36,662 bases of DNA from a virus. Its lineage: Duplodnaviria; Heunggongvirae; Uroviricota; Caudoviricetes. The stretch's first letter is position 1. The number at the start of each line of letters is the position of its first letter. Below are positions 19,119 to 36,633 of this stretch, in pieces. The translations under genes and the position numbers were made by a program. The notes below the pieces were generated by a model that was given only the letters and a program-made list of their open reading frames with translations, was not told where the DNA came from and searched no databases. The DNA is taken from positions 1 through 36,662 of IMG/VR virus record IMGVR_UViG_2713896792_000001. One strand, written 5' to 3'.

Positions 19119-19382
19119 ATGAGTAACTACCTAGAATTTAAGAAAAAAATTGGTGAATATGCAAATGTTACTCGGTGGGGTTTCCCCTGTACCGAGCGTG
19201 AAATCACTTTGATACAAAATGACATTAACTCCGCGCTTCAAAGTGGTAAAGTTATAAGTCGTAGCATGCTCCAAGGCATTATCAGCCGTCATGTTCCCAA
19301 TACCCAATTCTTAATCACTGAAAGTGTGGACAACTCTGATCTTAACACTGCATTAAGAATGCTGGCACCAAAACAAAAATGA
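19119..19382 (+). CDS. hypothetical protein (moron gene 1)
   Basis: 87-aa ORF, ATG at 19119 with AAGGAG 8 nt upstream; AT-rich by inspection; opposite strand to all flanking phage genes. Confidence 0.5.
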   Translation: MSNYLEFKKKIGEYANVTRWGFPCTEREITLIQNDINSALQSGKVISRSMLQGIISRHVPNTQFLITESVDNSDLNTALRMLAPKQK

Positions 19383-20122
19383 ATAATGATGAGTTTCAGA
19401 TCAGCCCCGACGAAGTAACGTCGGAGCTGACTTCTGCAAAGGAAAGATTTTTACGTGGTATTCAGCCATACGTGCGTAATGGCGGTATATCAAACCTTGC
19501 TGACCTACATGAAGTTCAGCAGCATGCTTCAAAATATTTTAATACCGCTGTTAAGTTAGTTCAAAAAGTAGATTTATGTAAACTGGATGACAATAAGACA
19601 TTCGCCATTTCGTTAGCTGGAGACTGTCGAGCAGTTCTGGAAACTTATTTAGAATACTACGACATGATGGTGGCAAACATTAAACACCTAAAAATTGATC
19701 CAGACAATATTGTATTGTATAGCAAAGATGGTCTATCAAACATTCAAAGAATCATTAAAAAGTACTCATCAAAAGATATTTACACCGCTATTATTGCGGA
19801 ATTTGAGTCTCGAAAATTGCCAATCGATGGATTTACTATAGGTACCCCAATGAATTGGAAATTAATTGTCACTGCTATTATTGGATTTTTAAGTTTTTGT
19901 ATTTTTTTATCAATTACACTGTTAATGCCAGACTTGAATGAGTTTCAAAAGAAAATGATTTCTTCTTTATATTTCATGAGTGCGGCCGTTGGAATATCAC
20001 CATTCATTGCAAATAATATAAAGGTCAATGGGAAGATGGTATTTCGTGGTTCGGAATTTAAAGTATCTGCTATTGGTGGTTTAGCAACATTGATTGTTTC
20101 TTTCATCATCCAAGTAATTTAG
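19379..20122 (+). CDS. hypothetical membrane protein (moron gene 2), soluble N-domain plus three C-terminal TM segments
   Basis: 247-aa ORF, start overlaps gene 1 stop (ATGA); hydrophobic segments WKLIVTAIIGFLSFCIFLSITLLM, SLYFMSAAVGISPFIANNI, VSAIGGLATLIVSFIIQVI. Confidence 0.55.
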   Translation: MNNDEFQISPDEVTSELTSAKERFLRGIQPYVRNGGISNLADLHEVQQHASKYFNTAVKLVQKVDLCKLDDNKTFAISLAGDCRAVLETYLEYYDMMVANIKHLKIDPDNIVLYSKDGLSNIQRIIKKYSSKDIYTAIIAEFESRKLPIDGFTIGTPMNWKLIVTAIIGFLSFCIFLSITLLMPDLNEFQKKMISSLYFMSAAVGISPFIANNIKVNGKMVFRGSEFKVSAIGGLATLIVSFIIQVI

Positions 20123-20148: not shown

Positions 20149-20490
20149 TCATAGCATTGATAGCACACCACTAACAAAACCTAATGCTGTTTGCATATCT
20201 TTTCTAATTGTCCCATCAGAACACTTACGCTTCTTCGCAATGGCGCGTAATGAAATACCAATAACAAAGTGGGCAATTATTAGCTCATATTCTTCTTGTT
20301 TATATTTACGTAACCGTGCGACACAACCGTCTATCACGATCCCTTCATCATCATCACACTGGAGACGTGTTTTTTTACCATGAGGTAAAAGCCCCTTGAA
20401 GCCTGCTGCTATCGGCTGCCAGTCCACACTACTGTTATCTGCTGCAGCCCATGCTCCCCAGCGGTCCAAAACTTCATACATGTCACGCAT
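20149..20490 (-). CDS. late antiterminator Q (QuuD / phage 82 Q-like)
   Basis: Start at Met7 of track ORF (MRDMYEVLDRWGAWAA...), preceded by GGAGAAAG; N-terminus and AAGFKGL motif match my recollection of E. coli QuuD; upstream of the lysis cassette. Confidence 0.7.
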   Translation of the reverse strand: MRDMYEVLDRWGAWAAADNSSVDWQPIAAGFKGLLPHGKKTRLQCDDDEGIVIDGCVARLRKYKQEEYELIIAHFVIGISLRAIAKKRKCSDGTIRKDMQTALGFVSGVLSML

Positions 20491-20507
20491 CAACTTTCTC
20501 CACAACA

Positions 20508-21503
20508 TCAGCCCAGTACGCCAGTTGCCAGCGCACGATCGATAAAACGAAATATCAGCTCCAGCTGAGAGCCATACTTCTCTTCAAATGCCACGGTATC
20601 CGCATGCAGTTCGTCGTGATGCTTTCTGCACAAAGGCAACACAAAGAGATCATGCGCTTTTGTACCCATTCCCCCCTGACCGTGGCCTATCAGGTGGTGA
20701 GGATCATCAGCAGGCTTTCCACAACATGCGCACGGCTGTGTCTTAACCCAGCGCGTGTACTTTTCATTAACCCAGCGGCGACGTTTTGGGCGTAACATAA
20801 AAGACTCCGGCGACTCCGGATCCACTTTCAGCGCCAGCACCTTTTTCGCCTTATCCTGGATGATGCTGGTGGCAGGAACCGAAGGCACAAGGTCACTTTC
20901 CCGGGTGACAGACGGCACAACAGGATTCGGTAATCTCAGTGCCTTACGGGCTGCGCTTTCCGGTAAGGCATCCGCCAGATCATTACGAACCAGCCACCAG
21001 CACAGTTCCGGCATTGTCACAACGTGACTGTCATCAAAACCGAGATCCCGACGCACAACAGACAACACCCAGCGGGCACAGTTATCCGTTGCCATTGATT
21101 CCAGCCGTTCCGTGAACTGATCGCGCAGCTGGTTATCGCAGTGCCAGCACAGACGGATTGCGCCCGGAGCGTGTCGCATTGTTGTCATGTTCTCGCTGTG
21201 CCAGTCGGAATGAGGCCACTGGCAGCCTTTTTCACGAAGTAACCAGCTTTCAAGACATTCCACGCCACCAGCACGACGGATCACTGCCTCATTGCGGAAC
21301 ACGGCCCGAACAGCAGGATCATCCGCCAGCGGTTGTGATGCCGCCGGAACGGCACCACTGGCAAAAGATGAATAACGTTCTGGCTCAGGCTCCAGCAGGA
21401 CACGCCCCTGCATAAACAGGGGCATCAGCTCTGAACCGGGTCTGAACAATACGATCCCCATACGCGGGGCAATTTCAGGGGTCAGTAATGCTCTCACGGT
21501 CAC
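20508..21503 (-). CDS. DUF968-like protein with C-terminal Cys/His nuclease-like motif
   Basis: 331-aa ORF (GTG start in track; first ATG is Met14); C-terminal PCACCGKPADDPHHLIGHG...CRKHHDELH motif resembles the YdfU/DUF968 family found in nin regions. Confidence 0.45.
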   Translation of the reverse strand: MTVRALLTPEIAPRMGIVLFRPGSELMPLFMQGRVLLEPEPERYSSFASGAVPAASQPLADDPAVRAVFRNEAVIRRAGGVECLESWLLREKGCQWPHSDWHSENMTTMRHAPGAIRLCWHCDNQLRDQFTERLESMATDNCARWVLSVVRRDLGFDDSHVVTMPELCWWLVRNDLADALPESAARKALRLPNPVVPSVTRESDLVPSVPATSIIQDKAKKVLALKVDPESPESFMLRPKRRRWVNEKYTRWVKTQPCACCGKPADDPHHLIGHGQGGMGTKAHDLFVLPLCRKHHDELHADTVAFEEKYGSQLELIFRFIDRALATGVLG

Positions 21504-24475: not shown

Positions 24476-24814
24476 CTATTTCCCTGAATTTACGACGAAA
24501 CTGTTCGAGCGGGCTGAAGCACTCATGCTCATAGCCTTCGCGGAGGTAGATAACCCGTTGTGTTTCCGGCTCCCAACGAATGACTCTGACGGGCACTCCG
24601 TAGTGATCTTTGAACCAGCGGTTAACTTGTCGCAAAGGACTGTCTCCTTCTGCCGGTTGAAATCACCCACAGCCCACTCTGCAAAGCTGTGGGTTACAAT
24701 TTCCCTGTCACCTGGTACATTTACTGCATAGCAATACTCCACCTTCGCTTTTCCACCCGGTACAGGAAGCGCAATCAGTTGCGAGCGACGGTAGTGTGTT
24801 GTTAAACTGTTCAT
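24476..24814 (-). CDS. hypothetical protein (frame uncertain; see findings)
   Basis: 112-aa ORF whose ATG overlaps the CII-like stop (ATGA); its C-terminal half is low-complexity, while an alternative frame (24456-24635, TTG start, AAGGAG SD) encodes a more protein-like 59-aa sequence. Confidence 0.3.
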
Positions 24815-25407
24815 GCGTTAGTTTCTCCACAGTCACGACACGCCACGGCGCCCGGAGCTGCACACTCGCGGGCGTCATTACTTTCTGAAATGCAAAAAAT
24901 TTTGTAGACCAGTGCTGCATGCTCCTGCAGCTTCGAAATTGAGAGGTACAGCTCGTCGTTAATTGCTGTCTTCTCATGCGGTTCCACTACACCGTCTTCA
25001 ATTGCTGAACGAATCTGTTTTGAATAACTGCCGATCTGTTCAATGACTTCCAGCAGGCGCTGGTTAATATCGGCGTTGTCCACATCCTCGACGTCAGGAA
25101 GAGACACAAAGACGCCATTTGCAGACTGCGCCACAGCGTCAGCAATGAAGTGAGTTCCACCAGCACGTTGCAAAATCATTGCCCATCCCAGCGGGAAAAT
25201 CTGATCGCCATCGGCACGAAGGCGGTTAAATAATGCGTTCTCTGTTACATCCAGCCAGTCAGCTGCTTCAGCGTAACCACCCGGCAACTTTGCGATAGTT
25301 TTTCTGACAGCTTTCACGTACCACTCAGGCTGTTTTTCTACTTTCCAGTGATGCTTACCCACGGTTAGCCTCATCGTTCTGTGGTTTCTGTTAATCGATT
25401 TATCCAT
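24811..25407 (-). CDS. CII-like regulatory protein (CP76/YdaT-like, candidate)
   Basis: Track ORF starts at GTG 25476 inside cro; first plausible ATG (Met24, 25407) overlaps cro stop (ATGGATAA); position immediately downstream of cro. Confidence 0.4.
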
Positions 25408-25600
25408 TAGATTTTTCATAAAGCTCAGGTTTAAATGGCAACCGTCCGCAAGTTCTATATGCAGCTTCTGCTGCACGTCCTTTTGGAATTAACTGGCCCG
25501 GACGGTTTCGCCACTGATAAACGGCTTCAGTTGTTATGCCGAAAAAAGCAGCAACTTTCTCAATACTGCCGAAGTAGCTTTCGATATCGTCAGTTGTCAT
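25400..25600 (-). CDS. Cro-like HTH repressor (YdaS family-like)
   Basis: 66-aa ORF divergent from cI, SD GGAGGG; HTH-like segment IEKVAAFFGITTEAVYQWRNR. Confidence 0.6.
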   Translation of the reverse strand: MTTDDIESYFGSIEKVAAFFGITTEAVYQWRNRPGQLIPKGRAAEAAYRTCGRLPFKPELYEKSNG

Positions 25601-25697
25601 ACGCCCTCCAAACTAAGTTTTATTAGATGCTAATTACAAATCTATCTTTGGTCAATAAAAACTAAGATTACTTAGTAATTAAAGAAATGGTGCTCCT
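25601..25697. promoter_or_regulatory. OR-like divergent promoter/operator region between cro and cI
   Basis: 97-bp AT-rich intergenic region containing ACTAAG (25612-25617) and inverted repeat CTAAG-ATTA-CTTAG (25662-25675). Confidence 0.5.
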
Positions 25698-26324
25698 ATG
25701 GAAACGGTTGGTCAGCGTATAAAAGCTCTGAGAAGAGTTACCAGAACGTCCCAGAAAGAATTGGGTAAATTTTGTGGAGTAAGCGACGTTGCTGTGGGGT
25801 ACTGGGAGAAAGACATCAATACCCCTGGTGGGGAGGCACTTTCGAAATTAGCGAAGTTCTTCAATACGTCAATAGATTACATTCTTTATGGTGCTGAGTT
25901 TGAAGGCAAACTCGTCACAAACATGCGCAGAGTTCCTGTAATATCGTGGGTTCAGGCTGGGCAGTTTACTGAGTGCAGGGCAGCAGAAGTGTTTAGTGAA
26001 GTGGACAAGTGGGTAGATACATCATTAAAGATTGGTGATAACTCATTTGCATTAGAGGTTAAAGGTGACTCCATGACTAACCCTAATGGCCTCCCAACAA
26101 TACCAGAAGGCGCAACAGTGATTGTAGATCCAGATGCAGAACCTCGTCATGGAAAAATAGTCATCGCTCGACTTGATGGAACAAACGAAGCTACAGTAAA
26201 AAAATTAGTCATCGATGGCCCTCAAAAGTTTTTAGTGCCATTAAATCCTCGGTATCCCAACATCCCTATCAATGGTAATTGCCTTATCATTGGTGTAGTC
26301 AAAGGAGTTCAATACGAACTCTAA
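25698..26324 (+). CDS. CI-type prophage repressor (HTH_XRE + S24 LexA-like peptidase)
   Basis: 208 aa; N-terminal HTH (QKELGKFCGVSDVAVGYWE), C-terminal S24 motifs EVKGDSMTNP (Ser) and ATVKKLV (Lys). Confidence 0.85.
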   Translation: METVGQRIKALRRVTRTSQKELGKFCGVSDVAVGYWEKDINTPGGEALSKLAKFFNTSIDYILYGAEFEGKLVTNMRRVPVISWVQAGQFTECRAAEVFSEVDKWVDTSLKIGDNSFALEVKGDSMTNPNGLPTIPEGATVIVDPDAEPRHGKIVIARLDGTNEATVKKLVIDGPQKFLVPLNPRYPNIPINGNCLIIGVVKGVQYEL

Positions 26325-26334
26325 GACCTCTCTT

Positions 26335-26410
26335 CTCTAACTAAGGCACCGAACTAAGAAAAGTTTGGTGTTTTCTCTTGCCATAATAACTAAGTTAAGT
26401 TAGATTTTAT
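26335..26410 (+). promoter_or_regulatory. OL/PL-like region: operator repeats and candidate early-left promoter
   Basis: Three copies of AACTAAG (26339-26345, 26352-26358, 26388-26394); -35 TTGCCA (26378-26383), 17-bp spacer, -10 TAGATT (26401-26406). Confidence 0.4.
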
Positions 26411-26493
26411 GTCAAAGATAACGAACAGGCAGGACGCCCACGAAGTAGCCGCCTGGGGCATATGAAGTCCAGGATGATTCGTTAGCAACAAAA

Positions 26494-26527
26494 AAGCGCC
26501 CTACAGGACGCTTAGCTCTTTAACAAT
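26494..26527 (+). promoter_or_regulatory. nut-like site: short hairpin followed by rrn-type boxA
   Basis: AAGCG-N10-CGCTT hairpin (26494-26513) then GCTCTTTAACAAT (26515-26527), which matches the rrn boxA consensus GCTCTTTAACAA. Confidence 0.35.
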
Positions 26528-26571
26528 CTGGTCCCCATCAACAAGTAACTGATAACTTGAGGAGATGTGAA

Positions 26572-26778
26572 ATGCACAAAACAGAACCCAAAATCGTCGC
26601 GCCTGGCTACACAGATGAGGAAATTTATGAGTGGATGACAAAGAAGCTGGCAGCTATAAACCAGCTTCGTGAAGTGCTGTCTTATCGACAGGAAACAATA
26701 GACTCCTTAAAAAAACTGGATCAGGAAATCACGGTTTTATCACAGGATGTTACTTTAGATATTGTGCAGACAAATTAG
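26572..26778 (+). CDS. small hypothetical protein (first early-left ORF)
   Basis: 68 aa from ATG 26572 with GAGGAG SD 7 nt upstream; not Arg-rich, so not an obvious N homolog. Confidence 0.35.
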   Translation: MHKTEPKIVAPGYTDEEIYEWMTKKLAAINQLREVLSYRQETIDSLKKLDQEITVLSQDVTLDIVQTN

Positions 26779-27184
26779 GATCCCATTCATTTTCGTCAAA
26801 ATCATCAAAGTGATGAATTTGTGATCTCCAGTCTCGATAATCTAAAAATTTCTGGGCGGTTACGCTTATTTTATCAAGTGTGAGTTCATCCTGAATTGAA
26901 AGAAGAAGTTCATCAAATTTCATCTCATTAATCTGTTTTGGCATCCAGTGATGCTTCATCAGAATAAGGTGAACCAGAGCCTTTTTCCCATTCAACTGAT
27001 TATAGGGAGTGCCGAATTTCTTCCGGTGCTCATGTAAGACAAGGTCCAAAAGAGTAAGTAATGTTGCCCTTGATTCAACTTTGCTTATTTCGACTGATGA
27101 CACTACCCCACTGATTTCAATGCCCCGATACTTTCCAACATTTTCACAGTGGGATTTGTACAGCGTATAGATATTACCGGACAT
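26750..27184 (-). CDS. hypothetical protein (immunity-region orphan, 144 aa)
   Basis: ATG at 27184 with AAAGGAAAAG upstream; AT-rich by inspection; convergent with and overlapping the 3' end of 26572-26778; no TM segments. Confidence 0.5.
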   Translation of the reverse strand: MSGNIYTLYKSHCENVGKYRGIEISGVVSSVEISKVESRATLLTLLDLVLHEHRKKFGTPYNQLNGKKALVHLILMKHHWMPKQINEMKFDELLLSIQDELTLDKISVTAQKFLDYRDWRSQIHHFDDFDENEWDPNLSAQYLK

Positions 27185-27471
27185 TTCTTTTCCTTTTGCG
27201 TTGTTGGGGATAACCAGATTAACCGAATCCTTGTTGTTGGGGAATAACTAGGTCCACCTCGCCTGATGTGGCTAAAAGCAGGCACATAACAGCTAAGTAT
27301 TTTCAACCAGAGAGAATCCTTAGCGTTGTGGTGAATGCGGCTCAGCGCACGCGGGTTAAGGTTGAGGCTGACAGTCGACCTTCTGTGGATACCCACCCGC
27401 CTGGTGTGCAACCTTCGCCAGGCACCGGGAGGCACCCGGCACCACAACTTTATGCTGTGTGTAGTCTTGGC

Positions 27472-27515
27472 GGTACCAGCTTGTACCCTTGCTTCCGGCT
27501 GGTACCGTCCTTTTT
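27472..27515 (+). terminator. intrinsic terminator-like hairpin in early-left leader
   Basis: GGTACCAGC (27472-27480) / GCTGGTACC (27498-27506) 9-bp stem, followed by GTCCTTTTTA. Confidence 0.4.
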
Positions 27516-27652
27516 ACAAAACAGAGAAGAGCATCACCGGACGACGGGCTCATAACCCAATCCATCCGGGCGGCAGTCACCGCAGGTGTTCTTCTCTGTT
27601 TTGTGGAGAAACTAACCGACCTTGCAGGGTCGATATGATGAGGAGCAGCAAA

Positions 27653-28015
27653 ATGGCTAGCGAACGCAGTACTGATGTGCAGGCATTTATCGGGGAGCTG
27701 GACGGCGGCGTATTTGAAACCAAAATCGGCGCAGTTCTCAGTGAAGTCGCTTCCGGTGTGATGAACACGAAAACCAAAGGTAAGGTCTCGCTCAACCTGG
27801 AAATCGAACCGTTTGATGAGAACCGAGTGAAAATCAAACACAAACTCTCATATGTTCGCCCGACTAACCGCGGGAAAATTTCCGAAGAAGACACCACCGA
27901 AACGCCGATGTATGTCAATCGCGGTGGTCGCCTGACTATTCTGCAGGAAGACCAGGGACAGTTACTGACTCTTGCCGGTGAACCTGACGGAAAACTCCGC
28001 GCAGCAGGTCGTTAA
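27653..28015 (+). CDS. yfdP: YfdP-like hypothetical protein
   Basis: 120 aa from Met107 of the track ORF (ATG 27653, SD GAGGAG); first of a 120/274/178/120-aa gene run matching the sizes and order I recall for CPS-53 yfdPQRS. Confidence 0.45.
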   Translation: MASERSTDVQAFIGELDGGVFETKIGAVLSEVASGVMNTKTKGKVSLNLEIEPFDENRVKIKHKLSYVRPTNRGKISEEDTTETPMYVNRGGRLTILQEDQGQLLTLAGEPDGKLRAAGR

Positions 28016-29032: not shown

Positions 29033-29569
29033 ATGTCATTTATTAAAACTTTTTCCGGGAAGCATTTTTATTATGACAGGATAAATAAAGACGACATCGT
29101 TATTAACGATATCGCGGTTTCTCTTTCAAATATCTGTCGCTTTGCAGGACATCTTTCACATTTCTACAGCGTCGCCCAACATGCGGTGCTTTGCAGCCAG
29201 CTGGTACCGCAGGAATTTGCTTTTGAAGCGTTAATGCATGATGCAACAGAAGCATATTGCCAGGACATCCCCGCACCACTGAAACGCCTTCTTCCTGACT
29301 ATAAACGGATGGAAGAAAAAATAGACGCCGTAATCCGTGAGAAATACGGGTTACCCCCGGTTATTAGCACGCCTGTGAAATATGCCGATCTCATCATGCT
29401 GGCAACCGAACGCCGCGATCTCGGGCTTGATGATGGCTCTTTCTGGCCTGTACTGGAAGGTATCCCGGCAACAGAGATGTTCAAAGTTATTCCACTGTCG
29501 CCAGGCCATGCCTATGGGATGTTTATGGAACGTTTTAACGAGTTATCGGAGTTACGCAAATGCGCATGA
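29033..29569 (+). CDS. yfdR: HD-domain 5'-deoxynucleotidase, YfdR-like
   Basis: 178 aa from Met10 of track ORF (SD GGAGAA); H...HD motif visible (AQHAV ... ALMHDATEAY). Confidence 0.6.
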   Translation: MSFIKTFSGKHFYYDRINKDDIVINDIAVSLSNICRFAGHLSHFYSVAQHAVLCSQLVPQEFAFEALMHDATEAYCQDIPAPLKRLLPDYKRMEEKIDAVIREKYGLPPVISTPVKYADLIMLATERRDLGLDDGSFWPVLEGIPATEMFKVIPLSPGHAYGMFMERFNELSELRKCA

Positions 29570-29922
29570 ATGTTTTCGAAATGGAAGGGGTTCTTCGCGG
29601 GAAATGTGTACCGCGAGATCTGAAAGTGAATGAAACAAATGCTGAGTATCTGGTACGTAAATTCGATGCGCTTGAAGCTAAATGTGCGGCTCTGGAAAAC
29701 AAAGTAATACCAGTGTCAGCTGAACTGCCGCCAGCAAATGAAAGTGTTCTGTTATTTGATGCTAATGGAGAAGGCTGGCTGATTGGCTGGCGTTCTCTCT
29801 GGTACACATGGGGGCAAAAAGAAACCGGAGAATGGCAGTGGACATTTAAGGTCGGGGACCTTGAAAACGTCAATATCACTCACTGGGCAGTAATGCCGAA
29901 AGCACCAGAGACTAAGAAATGA
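29560..29922 (+). CDS. yfdS: YfdS-like protein (DUF551-like)
   Basis: 120-aa ORF overlapping yfdR-like stop (alternative ATG at 29566 in an ATGA overlap); Trp-rich C-terminal region. Confidence 0.5.
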   Translation: MRMNVFEMEGVLRGKCVPRDLKVNETNAEYLVRKFDALEAKCAALENKVIPVSAELPPANESVLLFDANGEGWLIGWRSLWYTWGQKETGEWQWTFKVGDLENVNITHWAVMPKAPETKK

Positions 29923-31747: not shown

Positions 31748-33013
31748 ATGTTGATTGAGTTTACAGTACAAAACTATAAATCTATTTCAGAGAAACAAAC
31801 ACTGAGTTTAGTTGCATCAAAACTTAACGATTTGCCTAATAATCTGTTCAGTATTGATGAACCTAAATCTCTTGAATTGCTTAAAAGTGCTGTGATTTAT
31901 GGCCCTAATGCTGCCGGAAAATCAAACATTATTAACGCTATTACAACTATGGCTGAACTTATTGTCCGGTCTGCTACAGGTTATAAAAGTGGTGATAAAC
32001 TTGATATCACGCCTTTTAGACTAGACTCAAAGAAGATTAATCAACCATCTGAATTTGAAATTAACTTTATTTCCGAAGGCATCAGATACCAGTATGGTTT
32101 TTCTGCAACAGAAGATTTTATTCACGACGAATGGTTATTTGCATTCCCCAAAGGCAGACCACAAAAATGGTTTTTACGTCTATGGGATGAAGAAAAACAA
32201 ACCCATGAATGGGAGTTGGGGCCATCGTTGACAGGAGAAAAACAAACATGGTTGAAATCAACCAGGCCTAATGCGCTCTTTCTTTCTACAGCGGTACAAT
32301 TAAACAGTGTACAACTAAAACCTGTATACGATTGGTTTTATTACAAAGTTAAATTTACTGAATTAACAGGTTGGGATAGTGATTACAGTGCAAAGCAATG
32401 CTTAAATGATAAGAAAGATGAGATTCTCAATTTTTTAAAAGCTGCCGATGTAGGTATTGATGACATTCATGTAACAAAAGAAAAATTCAATCCCAATGCT
32501 CTTCCTGATGATATGCCTGCAGCCATCAAGGAACTAGTGATTAAGAATATGCAAGGCAAGGAAGAATATGTCATTAAAACACTTCATAATAATGAGGATG
32601 GAGAGCCAATTCCATTCGATTTAAAAGATGAATCGCATGGAACTAGAAAAATCTTTAGTTTCGCGGGTCCCTTATCACATTCACTCGAGACAGGAAACAT
32701 CCTGTTTATTGATGAATTAAATGATAACTTACACCCCAAATTAGTTGAGTTTATTGTAGGTTTATTTCACGATAAAAATATCAATAAGAATGGTGCCCAG
32801 TTAATCTTTACAACTCATGAGACGTCTATTTTAAATCAAGATGTTTTCAGACGAGATCAGATTTGGTTTGTAGAAAAAGACAATTCAAAGCAAACAAATC
32901 TTTTCCCACTTACGGATTTTAGTCCAAGAAAAGGAAGGGAGAATTTAGAAGCTTCTTATCTTGACGGTAGATATGGGGCTTTACCACTCATTGGGAAATG
33001 GGAGAGATATTAA
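31748..33013 (+). CDS. AAA_21/ABC-type ATPase, AbiLi-like
   Basis: 421 aa; Walker A GPNAAGKSN, Walker B ILFIDELNDN, H-loop FTTHE; AT-rich gene; SD AAGGG. Confidence 0.7.
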   Translation: MLIEFTVQNYKSISEKQTLSLVASKLNDLPNNLFSIDEPKSLELLKSAVIYGPNAAGKSNIINAITTMAELIVRSATGYKSGDKLDITPFRLDSKKINQPSEFEINFISEGIRYQYGFSATEDFIHDEWLFAFPKGRPQKWFLRLWDEEKQTHEWELGPSLTGEKQTWLKSTRPNALFLSTAVQLNSVQLKPVYDWFYYKVKFTELTGWDSDYSAKQCLNDKKDEILNFLKAADVGIDDIHVTKEKFNPNALPDDMPAAIKELVIKNMQGKEEYVIKTLHNNEDGEPIPFDLKDESHGTRKIFSFAGPLSHSLETGNILFIDELNDNLHPKLVEFIVGLFHDKNINKNGAQLIFTTHETSILNQDVFRRDQIWFVEKDNSKQTNLFPLTDFSPRKGRENLEASYLDGRYGALPLIGKWERY

Positions 33014-33699
33014 TGGGAAGCGAAGATCTGTTCAAAAAAAGAAAGGCTCGGCGTAATAATGAATTCAAACGAGTTAGTAAAGCACGAGCTCAAATGAAGA
33101 AAATTCTTATCGTCTGTGAGGGAGAGAAGACTGAGCCCGCATATTTTACAGATTTTATAAAACATTGCCGTATAAGCACGGCAAGCATAGTTGAGATTTC
33201 TGGAGAGTGCGGCTCAAGCCCTATGAATGTGGTATCTTGGGCAAAAGAAAAATATAATACGGAAAAAAAAAGGAGCGACCCTTATGATAAGGTTTATTGT
33301 GTCTTTGATAGAGACGCTCACCCTAACTATGATGAAGCTCTTAGCAGGATTAATTCCTTAAATCCAAAAGGGATTTTTGTTGCTATAACTTCCATACCAT
33401 GTTTCGAGTACTGGCTGATACTACATTTTGGATACACCCGAAAATCATTTTCACCTCAGAAAGGCAAAAGTGAAGGCGCACAAATGCTAGCTGAGTTAAA
33501 AAAATACATGCCAGATTATGAGAAAAAGGCATCAGGTGTATTTAATAAATTGCAAGATCGGCTCGATACGGCATTAATCAATGCTAAAAGAGTCGAAGAT
33601 GCCGCCAAAAAAGACGGTTCGATAAATCCTTCAACTAAAGTTGGCGCTTTGATTACAGATCTAATTAACATTCGTGATGACTTTGAAAATGAGAAGTAA
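33013..33699 (+). CDS. RloB-like (TOPRIM-like) protein, AbiLii-like
   Basis: Start at Met6 of track ORF (TAATG overlap, SD GGGAGAG); N-terminal ILIVCEGEKTEPAYF motif characteristic of RloB-family proteins (recollection). Confidence 0.6.
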   Translation: MGSEDLFKKRKARRNNEFKRVSKARAQMKKILIVCEGEKTEPAYFTDFIKHCRISTASIVEISGECGSSPMNVVSWAKEKYNTEKKRSDPYDKVYCVFDRDAHPNYDEALSRINSLNPKGIFVAITSIPCFEYWLILHFGYTRKSFSPQKGKSEGAQMLAELKKYMPDYEKKASGVFNKLQDRLDTALINAKRVEDAAKKDGSINPSTKVGALITDLINIRDDFENEK

Positions 33700-34060: not shown

Positions 34061-35302
34061 ATGGCAAGACAAACCAAACCTCTATCCGTTAAAGAAATAG
34101 AATCAGCCAAACCCAAGGAGGCGGACTACGTTCTCTATGATGGCGATGGCCTTGAGCTACTCATTAAATCCAGCGGGAGTAAAATCTGGCAGTTTCGCTA
34201 CATTCGCCCTGTCACCAAGAAACGAGCAAAGAAGAGCATAGGCTCCTACCCGTCAGTTACCCTTGCCGATGCCAGAAACTACCGTGCAGAGTCCCGCTCA
34301 CTACTGGCTAAACAGATCGATCCGCAGGAACATCAGCAAGAACAATTGCGCAGTTCGCTGGAAGCCAAAACCAACACTTTCCAACTCGTAGCTGAACGTT
34401 GGTGGAATGTGAAGAAAGCCAGTGTGACAGAGGACTATGCGGAAGATATCTGGCGCTCTCTTGAAAGAGACGTCTTTCCTGCGATTGGCGACGTTAGCGT
34501 TACAGATATTAAAGCTCATACACTGGTTCAGGCCGTACAACCGGTTCAGGCCAGAGGAGCACTGGAAACTGTTCGTCGCCTGTGCCAACGTATTAATGAG
34601 GTCATGATCTATGCCCAGAACACAGGGCTGATTGATGCTGTTCCCAGCGTTAATATCGGTAAAGCCTTCGAGAAGCCTCAGAAAAAGAACATGCCCAGCA
34701 TTCGACCGGATCAGCTACCTCAGTTAATGCAGACGATGCGAACAGCCAGCATTAGCCTTTCCACACGCTGCCTGTTCATGTGGCAACTTCTTACTATTAC
34801 CCGCCCTGCCGAAGCGGCTGAAGCTCTCTGGGAAGAGGTAGACATAGAAGCGCGAGAGTGGAAGATTCCTGCAGCACGCATGAAAATGAACCGCGACCAT
34901 ACTGTTCCATTGTCAGATGAAGCAATTGCGATACTAGAGATGATGAAGCCGTTAAGTGGAAATCGAGAATTTATCTTTCCCAGCCGCATCAAGCCAAACC
35001 AGCCGATGAACAGTCAGACCGTAAACGCATCGCTAAAACGCGCAGGTTTTGGTGGGGTGCTCGTTTCACACGGCCTGCGATCTATCGCCAGTACAGCCCT
35101 TAATGAGCAGGGATTTCCACCTGATGTTATTGAGGCTGCACTTGCTCATGTGGATAAGAATGAGGTTCGTCGTGCGTATAACCGTAGTGATTATCTTGAG
35201 CAGCGACGGCCTATGATGCAGTGGTGGGCTGATTTTGTGATGGCTGCAGATCACGGTAGTATGATTGAAGGAGGGATAAAGGCAATGCGGTTAGTTGGAT
35301 GA
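34061..35302 (+). CDS. intA: P4-family tyrosine integrase, CP4-57 IntA-like
   Basis: 413-aa ORF directly downstream of the ssrA 3' end, as intA is in E. coli K-12; N-terminus MARQTKPL..YDGDGLELLIKSSGSK.WQFRY and C-terminus VSHGLRSIASTALNEQGFPPDVIEAALAH match IntA as recalled. Confidence 0.8.
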   Translation: MARQTKPLSVKEIESAKPKEADYVLYDGDGLELLIKSSGSKIWQFRYIRPVTKKRAKKSIGSYPSVTLADARNYRAESRSLLAKQIDPQEHQQEQLRSSLEAKTNTFQLVAERWWNVKKASVTEDYAEDIWRSLERDVFPAIGDVSVTDIKAHTLVQAVQPVQARGALETVRRLCQRINEVMIYAQNTGLIDAVPSVNIGKAFEKPQKKNMPSIRPDQLPQLMQTMRTASISLSTRCLFMWQLLTITRPAEAAEALWEEVDIEAREWKIPAARMKMNRDHTVPLSDEAIAILEMMKPLSGNREFIFPSRIKPNQPMNSQTVNASLKRAGFGGVLVSHGLRSIASTALNEQGFPPDVIEAALAHVDKNEVRRAYNRSDYLEQRRPMMQWWADFVMAADHGSMIEGGIKAMRLVG

Positions 35303-35512: not shown

Positions 35513-35776
35513 ATGAAGAAGCGTTTTTCCGACGAACAGATCATCAGTATTCTCCGCGAAGCCGAAGCTGGGGTACCCGCCCGTGAACTCTGCCGCAAGC
35601 ATGCCATTTCCGATGCCACGTTTTACACCTGGCGTAAGAAGTATGGCGGTATGGAGGTGCCTGAAGTTAAGCGCCTGAAGTCGCTTGAGGAAGAGAACGC
35701 CAGACTCAAGAAGCTGCTTGCCGAAGCCATGCTGGATAAAGAGGCGCTTCAGGTGGCTCTTGGGCGAAAGTACTGA
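35513..35776 (+). CDS. IS3-family transposase OrfA (HTH)
   Basis: 87 aa; HTH plus leucine-zipper-like C-terminus ([26 protein letters not shown]). Confidence 0.8.
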
Positions 35777-35799
35777 CGACAGACCAGAAGCGGGAAGCC

Positions 35800-36633
35800 G
35801 TGATGTTGATGTGTGATGCGACCGGTCTGTCGCAACGTCGTGCCTGCAGGCTTACAGGTTTATCCCTGTCGACCTGCCGCTATGAGGCTCACCGTCCGGC
35901 TGCTGATGCGCATTTATCAGGGCGCATCACTGAGCTGGCACTGGAGCGCAGGCGTTTTGGCTACCGTCGTATTTGGCAGTTGCTGCGCCGTGAAGGGCTT
36001 CATGTTAATCATAAGCGCGTGTACCGGCTTTATCACCTCAGTGGCCTGGGCGTAAAACGCAGAAGACGTCGTAAAGGGCTGGCAACAGAACGTCTGCCGC
36101 TGCTCCGTCCGGCGGCGCCCAATCTGACCTGGTCGATGGATTTCGTCATGGACGCACTTTCCACCGGTCGCAGGATCAAGTGTCTTACCTGCGTCGATGA
36201 TTTCACAAAGGAATGCCTGACGGTCACTGTTGCCTTTGGGATTTCAGGCGTTCAGGTCACGCGTATTCTGGACAGCATTGCACTGTTTCGAGGCTATCCG
36301 GCGACGATAAGAACTGACCAGGGGCCGGAGTTCACTTGCCGTGCACTGGATCAATGGGCCTTTGAGCATGGTGTTGAGTTGCGCTTAATCCAGCCGGGCA
36401 AGCCAACGCAGAACGGATTTATTGAGAGCTTTAACGGACGATTTCGCGATGAATGTTTGAATGAGCACTGGTTCAGCGATATCGTTCATGCCAGGAAAAT
36501 TATTAATGACTGGCGGCAGGATTATAACGAATGCCGCCCGCACTCCACGCTGAATTATCAGACACCGTCTGAATTTGCAGCGGGCTGGAGAAAGGGTCAT
36601 TCTGAGAATGAAGATTCCGACGTTACTAACTGA
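35800..36633 (+). CDS. IS3-family transposase OrfB (DDE/rve catalytic domain)
   Basis: 277 aa in the -1 frame relative to orfA; that frame is open from 35740, so an OrfAB fusion by -1 frameshifting is possible; DDE-type motifs ([23 protein letters not shown]). Confidence 0.8.

What the first reader, a model, noticed from the sequence alone, without database searches (positions are those of the whole stretch)
26572..27184. Orphan AT-rich gene next to the repressor, convergent with the first early-left ORF
Immediately right of cI, where lambda carries rexAB and other phages carry exclusion genes, a 144-aa AT-rich ORF is encoded on the minus strand with its own SD. It converges on, and overlaps by about 29 nt, a small plus-strand ORF (68 aa) that follows the nut-like site. 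Early-left transcription would therefore run antisense through the 144-aa gene. Neither protein is recognisable to me. The arrangement suggests a lysogen-expressed moron, perhaps with antisense control.
Basis: partly seen in the sequence, partly recalled or inferred. Interest (0 to 1): 0.6.

Follow-up and report, generated by a model that had tools for sequence, protein, structure and literature searches.

The report
Conserved convergent prophage gene pair
The "orphan" gene next to the phage repressor is one half of a two-gene cassette, in which a 144-residue protein of unknown fold always overlaps tail-to-tail with a small YdfC-type protein of the lytic operon; this looks like a lysogen-expressed accessory function with a built-in off-switch, but no function has been tested.

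Summary
A 144-aa minus-strand ORF (26750-27184, 37.9% GC) overlaps by 29 nt the 3' end of a 68-aa plus-strand ORF (26572-26778) that follows a PL-like promoter and a boxA-type nut-like site.

Neither gene is an orphan. The 144-aa protein is a member of the NCBIfam "ECs1072 family" (phrog_5286). The 68-aa protein is a YdfC-family protein (phrog_1744), as in the Qin dicBF operon.

The main result is that the pairing is conserved. In 17 of 19 sequence clusters of ECs1072-like genes (down to about 20% identity), the gene converges on and overlaps a YdfC-like ORF. This occurs in three operon contexts: after cI (PL), after cro/cII (PR, including Sakai Sp4), and between Q and holin (ST64B, Klebsiella phages).

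YdfC-like genes occur alone; ECs1072-like genes almost never do. Most family members carry their own extended -10 promoter and a terminator embedded in the partner gene. The window cassette (26484-27253) sits in a cargo-exchange slot.

The AlphaFold model is confident (pLDDT 94) and has no structural relative.

Best reading (about 0.4): a lysogen-expressed effector that is silenced or neutralised by its lytic-operon partner, analogous to Tha/Ith. The function remains untested.

The parts
26378..26406 (+). PL-like early-left promoter, TTGCCA-17-TAGATT, overlapped by the operator-like half-site ACTAAG at 26389. Further half-sites lie at 26340 and 26353.
   Evidence: Promoter scan. Half-site search: the same ACTAAG/CTTAGT half-sites occur between cro and cI at 25612, 25661 and 25671.
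26420..26483 (+). Conserved PL leader, shared at 98% identity with SfV. It marks the left edge of the variable slot.
   Evidence: BLASTN of the window against SfV. The mosaic pattern of the phage hits agrees.
26484..27253 (.). Exchangeable cassette. It holds a minus-strand terminator, the boxA, the YdfC-like gene, the ECs1072-like gene and its upstream block. It is present in 408 of 5426 complete E. coli genomes.
   Evidence: Boundaries from the SfV comparison. Genome count. Other cargos with the same flanks are shown.
26494..26513 (-). Intrinsic terminator for minus-strand transcription: AAGCGTCCTGTAGGGCGCTT followed by TTTTTGTTG, dG -11.5. On the plus strand the same hairpin precedes the boxA, which gives a nut-like arrangement.
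   Evidence: The same hairpin plus boxA is conserved next to a different 171-aa cargo in L139.
26515..26526 (+). rrn-type boxA-like element, GCTCTTTAACAA (the nut-like site).
   Evidence: This is the only exact copy in the window. The same 12-mer lies upstream of YdfC-like genes in L101-L105, L110-L111 and L131.
26572..26778 (+). YdfC-family small protein (68 aa), the first gene of the early-left operon. It is predicted to form one long alpha-helix (residues 15-67) after an extended N-terminal motif, PxIxAxGxTDEEIYEW.
   Evidence: phrog_1744 at E 6e-35. 41% identity to annotated YdfC proteins of Qin-like phages. Pairwise network of partner ORFs. AF2 model with pLDDT 85.
26643..26668 (-). Terminator-like hairpin plus T-run for the 144-aa gene's transcript, embedded in the coding sequence of the YdfC-like gene, 105 nt past the stop codon.
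   Evidence: Equivalent hairpins 39-106 nt past the stop, inside the partner ORF, occur in L003, L004, L114, L097, L107, L011, L013, L131 and L133.
26750..26778 (.). 29-nt overlap of the two convergent coding sequences (3' end to 3' end).
   Evidence: In other family members the overlap ranges from 35 to 317 nt.
26750..27184 (-). ECs1072-family protein (144 aa): all-alpha, 7 helices, with no detectable structural or sequence relative of known function.
27185..27275 (-). Conserved upstream block (leader and presumed promoter region) of the 144-aa gene, with the direct repeat TATyCCCCAAC x2. It has no good sigma-70 consensus; the best candidates are TGGACC-18-AAGGAT and TTCCCC-17-TAATCT.
   Evidence: The block is nearly identical upstream of the 72% and 53% identical homologues (L131, L133) and upstream of an unrelated 171-aa cargo (L139).
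27295..27518 (+). Neighbouring STnc100/PasD-type prophage sRNA element with a DicF-like terminator hairpin (27456-27515). It lies on the early-left transcript and is not part of the cassette.
   Evidence: Rfam RF02076 at 43.4 bits (gathering score 47), E 9.4e-8. DicF at 19.4 bits. Background on the family: bioRxiv 10.64898/2026.05.13.724894.

Best explanation
The two ORFs form one functional, mobile two-gene cassette.

The 144-aa ECs1072-family protein is the cargo. It is transcribed on its own, against the direction of the phage operon that hosts it, from a promoter/leader block on its 5' side. Transcription ends at an intrinsic terminator that lies inside (and, here, also just beyond) the partner gene. 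On this reading the protein is made in the lysogen (inferred).

The partner is a small single-helix YdfC-family protein that belongs to the lytic operon (PL in this window; PR or the Q-dependent late operon in other phages). It is therefore made only when that operon fires.

When the lytic promoter fires, two things happen:
(i) Transcription runs head-on through the whole 144-aa gene and yields RNA complementary to its mRNA, which shuts the gene down by transcriptional interference and antisense pairing. This follows from the anatomy.
(ii) The YdfC-like protein is produced and neutralises the ECs1072-like protein already present. This step is inferred, not shown.

The most likely job of the 144-aa protein is a lysogen-benefit function that would harm the phage's own lytic growth, such as superinfection exclusion or abortive infection. 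The partner would then serve as cognate self-immunity. YdfC-like genes found alone in other phages, including Qin ydfC, would be escape or anti-exclusion genes.
For: 1. Conserved pairing.
- HMM survey of 127 loci plus four more. In 17 of 19 clusters (60% identity) of ECs1072-like genes, a YdfC-like ORF is convergent and overlapping (E 1e-39 to 6e-8; one weak at 2e-3).
- Six of these clusters were not used to build the HMM.

2. The pair moves as a unit between three operon contexts.
- After cI: window, L006, L010, L131, L134.
- After cro/cII: L008 and Sakai Sp4.
- Between Q and holin: ST64B, KPP5665-2, L011.

3. Co-divergence. The distance matrices of the two proteins correlate (r 0.63, Mantel p 2e-4; r 0.44 among distant pairs).

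4. Asymmetry, as expected for an effector plus immunity gene.
- Of 36 phage records with a YdfC-like gene, 14 carry a full ECs1072-like gene.
- All 14 phage records with a full ECs1072-like gene carry the partner.

5. Independent transcription unit.
- An extended -10 promoter-like element, TTCACC-N16/17-TGnTATCTT, ends 27-37 nt before the start codon in 13 of 17 representative loci.
- ECs-sense terminators lie 39-106 nt past the stop codon, inside the partner ORF.
- There are no consistent partner-sense terminators inside the ECs ORF.

6. Cargo slot. Different minus-strand genes share the same promoter/leader and terminator flanks.

7. Expression. ECs1072 gave a signal in uninduced Sakai cultures and fell 4-fold at entry to stationary phase (PMC2241611).

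8. Experimental precedent for the architecture. In S. aureus prophages the lysogen-expressed defence gene tha is switched off by a small overlapping antisense gene, ith (PMC11087260). BstA sits next to cI and has cognate self-immunity (PMC8585504).

9. Real proteins. The 144-aa model has pLDDT 94. The partner is predicted to be a single long helix, plausible as a binder.
Against: - No function, interaction or expression has been measured for this phage.
- There is no hit to any PADLOC defence model, Pfam family or solved structure, so 'exclusion/defence' rests on position and architecture only.
- In this window's subfamily the canonical extended -10 promoter is degenerate, and no good sigma-70 promoter was found.
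- Physical overlap by itself hinders separation of the two genes, which could inflate the apparent linkage and the co-divergence.
- Two clusters lack a recognisable YdfC-like partner: L007, and L013 (whose partner is a coiled-coil ORF that the YdfC HMM does not recognise).
- The Sakai microarray signal may not be strand-specific.
- A protein-protein interaction could not be modelled with the tools available.
Confidence: 0.4

Rival explanations
1. Reverse polarity, a 'safety catch'. The YdfC-like protein is the active lytic-phase factor, for example a host-takeover or growth-inhibiting early protein like others in the dicBF/kil regions. The ECs1072-like protein is made in the lysogen to neutralise leaky YdfC-like expression, and its antisense transcription damps read-through from PL, PR or PR'. 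Induction overwhelms it.
For: - YdfC-like genes occur alone in lytic operons, whereas ECs1072-like genes almost never occur without them. That is the pattern expected if the 144-aa protein exists only to serve the small one.
- The Qin dicBF operon that holds ydfC encodes toxic products (PMC5069750).
- The ECs-sense transcript covers at least 130 nt of the YdfC-like mRNA, and in this window may cover all of it, up to the backstop terminator at 26494-26513.
Against: - None of the papers read reports toxicity of YdfC. PMC5069750 lists ydfA, ydfB and ydfC only as small proteins of unknown function.
- A 144-aa folded domain with eight invariant or nearly invariant residues is large for a mere antidote to a 68-aa helix.
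- Many phages tolerate the YdfC-like gene without any guard.
Confidence: 0.2
2. Linkage without protein-level partnership. The 144-aa gene is an ordinary autonomous moron whose 3' end and terminator happen to be nested in a YdfC-like gene. The pair persists only because overlapping genes are inherited as a block. Any interplay is purely transcriptional (interference or antisense), and the two proteins have unrelated functions.
For: - The overlap and the embedded terminator physically tie the genes together.
- The same slot carries other minus-strand cargos without a YdfC-like partner (SfII, L139, PhiR29_1). This shows that the slot and its promoter work independently of YdfC.
- SfV's alternative cargo also overlaps an unrelated plus-strand ORF, orf33. 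Convergent overlap may therefore be a general habit of this slot.
Against: - The pairing survives down to about 20% identity, in three different operon contexts.
- The overlap length ranges from 29 to 317 nt. The junction has therefore been remodelled repeatedly without the genes separating.
- Remnants exist where the 144-aa gene decayed but the YdfC-like gene stayed (118970_sal3, SKA5). The reverse case was not seen among the phage records.
Confidence: 0.25
3. Phage-internal regulator. The ECs1072-like protein acts on the phage's own development, for example by modulating antitermination at the adjacent boxA/nut-like site, the stability of the neighbouring sRNA, or the lysis-lysogeny decision. 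It would not act on other phages or on the host.
For: - It always sits inside regulated lytic operons, close to control elements: boxA at 26515-26526, the STnc100/DicF-like RNA at 27295-27518, and Q-proximal sites in ST64B-type phages.
Against: - Presence/absence polymorphism among otherwise near-identical phages (SfIV vs SfV vs SfII) shows it is dispensable for the life cycle.
- It has no DNA- or RNA-binding domain signature.
- The STnc100 element adjoins it only in the window and L010.
Confidence: 0.1
4. The 144-aa ORF is an ordinary early-operon gene or a non-coding antisense ORF artefact.
For: - It is unannotated in ST64B.
- PGAP gives it only a placeholder family name.
Against: - It lies on the strand opposite to the operon in every context examined.
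- Family-wide conservation of length (about 144-155 aa) and of specific residues: L50, R54, L64, G66, A69, H72, W80, W134.
- It has a Shine-Dalgarno sequence.
- The AF2 model has pLDDT 94 and pTM 0.88.
Confidence: 0.03

Closest known systems
Tha-Ith of Staphylococcus aureus prophages (Rostol et al. 2024, PMC11087260)
   Same: - Both are prophage accessory genes placed next to the lysogeny switch.
- Both are paired with a small, overlapping gene on the opposite strand.
- In both, the two transcription states are mutually exclusive between lysogeny and lytic growth.
- In Tha-Ith the small gene's product inhibits the large one, so the prophage can still be induced. That is the role proposed here for the YdfC-like protein.
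   Different: - There is no sequence or fold relationship. Tha is a HEPN RNase, and no HEPN signature or HEPN structural match was found here.
- The polarity is swapped. Tha rides the cI operon and ith has its own antisense promoter. Here the large gene has its own promoter and the small gene rides the lytic operon.
- Defence activity and inhibition are experimentally shown for Tha-Ith and are untested here.
BstA/aba of BTP1-like prophages (Owen et al. 2021, PMC8585504)
   Same: - Both are lysogen-expressed cargo encoded just downstream of the cI repressor locus in lambdoid or P22-like enterobacterial prophages.
- BstA provides the concept of cognate self-immunity that lets the carrier prophage replicate.
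   Different: - BstA is a larger two-domain protein, and its immunity element, aba, is a 63-bp DNA element rather than a protein.
- No PADLOC hit of any kind was found for either protein of this window.
Classical phage morons (as in the HK97/HK022 comparisons; from my own knowledge) and lambda rexAB / P22 sieB
   Same: - An AT-rich insert between conserved phage genes, with its own expression signals.
- Present in some close relatives and absent from others.
- The position beside the immunity region matches that of rexAB and sieB.
   Different: - rexAB is co-transcribed with cI from PRM in the same orientation. This gene is opposite to both cI and PL.
- There is no homology to Rex or SieB.
- Unlike a simple moron, the cargo here is a conserved two-gene convergent unit that also occurs in the PR and late operons.
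ydfC of the E. coli K-12 Qin prophage dicBF operon (ydfA-ydfB-ydfC-dicF-dicB; PMC5069750)
   Same: - The 68-aa protein is about 41% identical to proteins annotated as YdfC.
- It is likewise a promoter-proximal small gene of the repressor-controlled early-left operon, followed by a DicF-like RNA element.
   Different: - In the Qin-like phage examined (L005) no ECs1072-like gene converges on ydfC.
- YdfC itself has no known function.

Membership tests
ECs1072 family phage-associated protein (NCBIfam NF033230) / phrog_5286 | Whole-protein HMM score above the curated cutoff, with a full-length match. | tested here: met
   157.8 bits against a cutoff of 70, residues 4-144 on profile positions 2-142. 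phrog_5286 at E 1.5e-90 over residues 1-144.
YdfC family / phrog_1744 (68-aa ORF) | Sequence similarity to YdfC over the full length, and a place in the repressor-controlled early operon. | tested here: met
   phrog_1744 at E 6e-35. 41% identity over 66 of 68 residues to annotated YdfC proteins. The gene lies downstream of cI and PL.
Moron (autonomous cargo unit in a phage genome) | Own promoter. | tested here: inconclusive
   An extended -10 promoter-like element is found in 13 of 17 representative family loci. In the window subfamily only a conserved upstream block without a good consensus was found. No transcript data are available.
Moron (autonomous cargo unit in a phage genome) | Own terminator. 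| tested here: met
   Minus-strand hairpin plus T-run at 26668..26643 and at 26513..26494. The second is conserved with a different cargo in L139. This is sequence-level evidence only.
Moron (autonomous cargo unit in a phage genome) | Present or absent between the same flanking genes in close relatives, with deviant base composition. | tested here: met
   SfIV and Kati carry it. SfV, SfII, PhiR29_1, mEp460_4F5 and vB_EcoM-720R4 carry other cargos between the same flanks. Cassette GC is 39.9% against 50.4% for the window.
Tha-Ith type defence with antisense self-immunity | A small overlapping gene on the opposite strand, tied to the lysis-lysogeny switch. | tested here: met
   29-nt convergent overlap in the window. 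The arrangement is conserved in 17 of 19 clusters.
Tha-Ith type defence with antisense self-immunity | HEPN-domain effector. | tested here: not met
Tha-Ith type defence with antisense self-immunity | Anti-phage activity of the large protein and its inhibition by the small protein. | not testable with these tools
   This needs phage plating and co-expression assays.
lambda RexAB-type exclusion | Homology to RexA/RexB and co-transcription with cI. | tested here: not met
   No Pfam, PHROG-function or PADLOC match. The gene is on the strand opposite to cI.
Known anti-phage defence systems (PADLOC-DB v2) | HMM match to any catalogued defence protein. | tested here: not met
   Zero families at E<=0.1 for both proteins.
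Type II toxin-antitoxin | Two adjacent co-transcribed genes in one operon, with a recognisable toxin or antitoxin fold. | tested here: not met
   The genes are convergent, not co-transcribed. No toxin or antitoxin family or fold match was found.
STnc100 (RF02076), the neighbouring element at 27295-27518 | Covariance-model score at or above the gathering threshold. | tested here: inconclusive
   43.4 bits against a gathering score of 47, E 9.4e-8, with a full-length model match of positions 1-206.

The most novel reading that the evidence does not exclude
ECs1072-like plus YdfC-like is a previously unrecognised, widespread two-gene prophage system of Enterobacteriaceae. The effector would be a lysogen-expressed protein with a new all-alpha fold that blocks phage development. 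Small single-helix YdfC-family proteins, expressed from lytic operons, would be its cognate inhibitors. On this reading the long-unexplained ydfC genes that stand alone in Qin-like phages would be anti-exclusion (counter-defence) genes. The convergent overlap would be the switch that couples the system to the prophage life cycle.
Probability: 0.3. Interest if true: 0.75.

Novelty: new variant of a known kind. Interest (0 to 1): 0.62.

Why it matters
- If the pair works as proposed, it adds an unrelated, Gram-negative example to the very recent principle that prophage-borne immunity is kept compatible with prophage induction by a small antisense-encoded inhibitor. The effector would have a fold with no known relative.
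- It would give a first functional hypothesis for two 'y-ome' or hypothetical families. One is YdfC of E. coli K-12. The other is the ECs1072 family, which occurs in about 7.5% of complete E. coli genomes, in EHEC Sakai Sp4, in Shigella serotype-converting phage SfIV, and (unannotated) in Salmonella phage ST64B.
- It also defines a cargo-exchange slot with portable promoter/leader and terminator flanks beside the repressor of SfV-like phages. That slot is a practical place to look for further lysogen-expressed genes.
- Even if the two proteins do not interact, the strict conservation of a convergent, overlapping pair with a terminator embedded in the partner's coding sequence is a clean natural case for studying transcriptional interference.

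Tried and rejected
- Pfam, PADLOC and NCBIfam function calls for both proteins gave nothing informative beyond the family names.
- I first thought the module had three parts (YdfC-like, ECs1072-like, STnc100 RNA), because translated fragments of the RNA recur in several loci. Rfam scans of 10 loci found STnc100 beside the pair only in L010; L006 has a tRNA there. I dropped the idea.
- I looked for a plus-strand terminator inside the 144-aa gene that would spare its 5' half from antisense transcription. Only weak, non-conserved hairpins were found.
- I looked for a consensus sigma-70 promoter for the window's gene. None was convincing.
- Word-index homology searches gave only close relatives. 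Scans of viral contigs with two divergent members found nothing. A diverse alignment could not be used for locus scanning.
- A complex prediction of the two proteins was not possible, because only exact window sequences can be submitted.
- A literature search by accession numbers and family ids found nothing. The only paper naming ECs1072 is a microarray table.
- The rexAB analogy is rejected on orientation and lack of homology. Type II TA is rejected on gene arrangement.
Full report
**What the window is**

The window is an SfV/SfIV-like temperate phage of E. coli. The stretch 26330-27660 is 99.9% identical to Escherichia phage Kati and 98% identical to Shigella phage SfIV. The immunity region reads as follows:
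- cII-like/YmfL, 24811-25476 (-)
- cro, 25400-25600 (-)
- a LexA-like cI, 25698-26324 (+)
- on the plus strand, the early-left operon (yfdP, yfdQ, yfdR ... xis, int)

**The observation**

- A 144-aa ORF lies at 26750-27184 (-), and a 68-aa ORF at 26572-26778 (+). Their 3' ends overlap by 29 nt, and both have Shine-Dalgarno sequences.
- GC is 37.9% for the 144-aa ORF against 50.4% for the window. The whole immunity region is AT-rich, though; cI is 43.1%.
- A PL-like promoter, TTGCCA-17-TAGATT (26378-26406), carries the same ACTAAG half-sites as the cro-cI intergenic region.
- The nut-like site is real. GCTCTTTAACAA (26515-26526) matches the rrn boxA core as I recall it, it follows a hairpin, and the same 12-mer recurs upstream of YdfC-like genes in other phages.
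- No conserved plus-strand terminator lies inside the 144-aa ORF, so PL transcription would cross it antisense.

**Neither gene is an orphan**

The 144-aa protein scores 157.8 bits (cutoff 70) on NCBIfam NF033230, 'ECs1072 family phage-associated protein', and E 1.5e-90 on phrog_5286. PGAP already names it so in E. coli genomes.

An exhaustive profile search of 1.84 billion representatives found 76 clusters. All are single-domain proteins of about 145-155 aa. The nearly invariant residues are L50, R54, L64, G66, A69, H72, W80 and W134.

The 68-aa protein is phrog_1744 and is about 41% identical to proteins annotated as YdfC in Qin-like phages. In those phages it lies in the repressor-controlled operon ydfA-ydfB-ydfC-dicF-dicB.

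The parallel with Qin goes further. In the window, 27295-27518 (+) is a near-threshold match to the prophage sRNA family STnc100 (43.4 bits against a gathering score of 47, E 9e-8), and its 3' hairpin resembles DicF. STnc100 and PasD are described prophage sRNAs. So the 68-aa gene is an ordinary early-left gene by position, and the 144-aa gene is inserted antisense between it and the RNA element.

**The main finding: a conserved convergent pair**

A tblastn search with the 144-aa protein hit ST64B and five Klebsiella phages at about 30% identity. These hits were not near cI. They lay between the Q antiterminator and the holin, on the strand opposite to the late genes.
- In ST64B the homologue is an unannotated 144-aa ORF. 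It converges on and overlaps sb50.
- In KPP5665-2 a 148-aa ORF (157 aa from the upstream ATG listed) overlaps a 118-aa ORF.
- Those partner ORFs carry the same N-terminal motif as the window's 68-aa protein (PxxxxxGxT/SxEELxxWL, followed by a coiled-coil segment) and are homologous to it and to YdfC.

I then fetched contexts for divergent family members and ran HMMs for both families over all loci.
- Among 127 loci (16 clusters at 60% identity), 14 clusters have a convergent, overlapping YdfC-like ORF. Six of these clusters had not contributed to the HMM.
- Three further members (L131, L133, L134) and the family prototype itself add to this.
- In EHEC Sakai prophage Sp4, ECs1072 (now ECs_5703) lies antisense between the cII-like gene ECs1071 and the replication gene ECs1073. 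It overlaps by about 317 nt an unannotated YdfC-like ORF (E 6e-8).
- In total, 17 of 19 clusters show the pair.
- The exceptions are L007 (no partner) and L013 (an overlapping coiled-coil partner that the YdfC HMM does not recognise).

The pair occurs in three operon contexts:
- after cI in the PL operon (window, L006, L010, L131, L134)
- after cro/cII in the PR operon (L008, Sakai)
- after Q in the late operon (ST64B type, L011)

Overlap lengths range from 29 to about 317 nt, so the junction has been remodelled many times while the pairing was kept. The distance matrices of the two proteins are correlated (r 0.63, Mantel p 2e-4).

The relation is asymmetric. Of 36 phage records with a YdfC-like gene, 14 carry a full ECs1072-like gene. 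All 14 records with a full ECs1072-like gene carry the partner. Two records keep only a remnant of the large gene.

**Expression signals**

In 13 of 17 representative loci an extended -10 promoter-like element (consensus TTCACC-N16/17-TGnTATCTT) ends 27-37 nt before the start codon. It is often followed by a CTTGG...CCAAGAAGG leader hairpin that abuts the Shine-Dalgarno sequence.

ECs-sense hairpin plus T-run terminators lie 39-106 nt past the stop codon, inside the partner's coding sequence, in the window (26668..26643) and at least nine other loci. In the window, L101 and L006 a second, stronger terminator lies between the partner's start and cI. In the window this is 26513..26494, with dG -11.5.

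The window's subfamily is an exception for the promoter. The canonical -10 is degenerate. A block of about 100 nt with a TATyCCCCAAC direct repeat is conserved instead, and no convincing sigma-70 consensus is present.

**A cargo slot**

Comparison with SfV places the cassette at 26484-27253, between a conserved PL leader (26420-26483) and the STnc100 side. In that slot other phages carry different cargo:
- SfV: a different, unannotated 85-aa minus-strand ORF that overlaps orf33
- SfII: a 63-aa minus-strand gene
- vB_EcoM-720R4: an 81-aa minus-strand gene
- PhiR29_1: a 242-aa minus-strand gene
- mEp460_4F5: a plus-strand HTH gene

The three small minus-strand ORFs (SfV, SfII, vB_EcoM-720R4) sit behind the same promoter-like element; PhiR29_1 does not.

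E. coli 2003-3014 has an unrelated 171-aa minus-strand gene flanked by exactly the window's upstream block and by the window's terminator/boxA end. The flanks are therefore portable expression and recombination signals, and the cargo is exchangeable. This is what one expects for lysogen-expressed accessory genes. The window's cassette is present in 408 of 5426 complete E. coli genomes.

**The proteins**

**Mechanism**

Shown by sequence and comparison:
- There are two real genes.
- Their convergent overlap is conserved.
- The large gene has independent expression signals.
- The small gene belongs to lytic operons.
- The site is a cargo slot.

Inferred:
- The large protein is made in the lysogen. 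The only direct hint is the growth-phase-dependent ECs1072 microarray signal in uninduced Sakai.
- Firing of the lytic promoter silences the large gene by head-on transcription and antisense RNA.
- The small protein neutralises the large one.

The closest experimentally established system is Tha-Ith of S. aureus prophages. There a lysogen-expressed defence gene is turned off on induction by a small overlapping antisense gene, and the architecture itself is required to balance immunity and autoimmunity. BstA/aba is a second precedent for cI-adjacent defence with cognate self-immunity. The present pair shares that logic but not the proteins, and the polarity of which gene rides the regulated operon is reversed.

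Rivals that the data do not exclude:
- a reverse 'safety catch', in which the large protein guards against leaky YdfC-like expression
- linkage by overlap alone, without any protein partnership
- a phage-internal regulatory role

**Verdict**

The interpretation as a lysogen-expressed moron with antisense control is partly supported. The gene is not an orphan, and the key point was missed: the two ORFs are a conserved, mobile, co-diverging pair. The function is untested. I rate the finding a new variant of a known kind (prophage accessory gene with an antisense-encoded switch). It has moderate to high interest, because it yields a sharp, cheap experimental test and a first hypothesis for the YdfC and ECs1072 families.

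Noticed in passing
window 27295-27518 (+): GC-rich, structured stretch that PGAP annotates as a 'frameshifted hypothetical protein'. It is a near-threshold match to the prophage sRNA family STnc100 (43.4 bits against a gathering score of 47, E 9e-8). Its terminal hairpin (27456-27515) weakly resembles DicF. This gives the Qin-like order ydfC-like gene, then sRNA, then downstream genes.
   Followed up: partly
window 26515-26526 (+); also L101-L105, L110-L111, L131: Exact rrn-type boxA 12-mer, GCTCTTTAACAA, directly after a hairpin in the PL leader. It recurs upstream of YdfC-like genes in other phages. No N-like protein and no second (nutR) copy was found in the window.
   Followed up: partly
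window 26484-27253 compared with L002 (SfV), L135, L136, L137, L138, L139: The slot between the PL leader and the sRNA element carries different, mostly minus-strand cargos in related phages. The SfV, SfII and vB_EcoM-720R4 cargos share a promoter-like element, TTCACC-N16/17-TGGTATCTT. E. coli 2003-3014 carries a 171-aa coiled-coil/CxxC protein between exactly the window's flanks. SfV has an unannotated 85-aa ORF (L002 3305-3562, minus strand) overlapping orf33.
   Followed up: partly
window 19119-20122 (+), next to Q at 20149-20508 (-): A second AT-rich (33-39% GC) cargo lies antisense to the late operon, just downstream of the Q antiterminator. It consists of two ORFs of 87 and 247 aa with no Pfam or PADLOC match. 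This is the same slot where ST64B-type phages carry the ECs1072-like/YdfC-like pair.
   Followed up: partly
window 31748-33699 (+): An AbiL-type defence pair: AbiLi (AAA_21 ATPase, PADLOC E 4e-101) and AbiLii (RloB-like, E 3e-29). It lies in an AT-rich island immediately after the phage integrase (30361-31557). A second integrase follows at 34061-35302.
   Followed up: partly
window 35743-36633 (+): An IS3-family element: an IS1222-type ribosomal frameshift element (Rfam, 156.6 bits) followed by an rve-domain transposase ORF at the right end of the window.
   Followed up: no
L003 (ST64B, AY055382) 3281-3715; L130 (Sakai) 29114-29677: There are gaps in the public annotation. The ECs1072-like 144-aa ORF of ST64B is not annotated, and neither is the YdfC-like ORF that overlaps ECs_5703 (old ECs1072) in Sakai Sp4.
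   Followed up: yes
L006 3759-3832 (-); L011 2608-2680 (-): tRNA genes lie directly beside the gene pair on the operon-sense strand in two other phages. In L006 the tRNA takes the place that the STnc100-like RNA occupies in the window.
   Followed up: no
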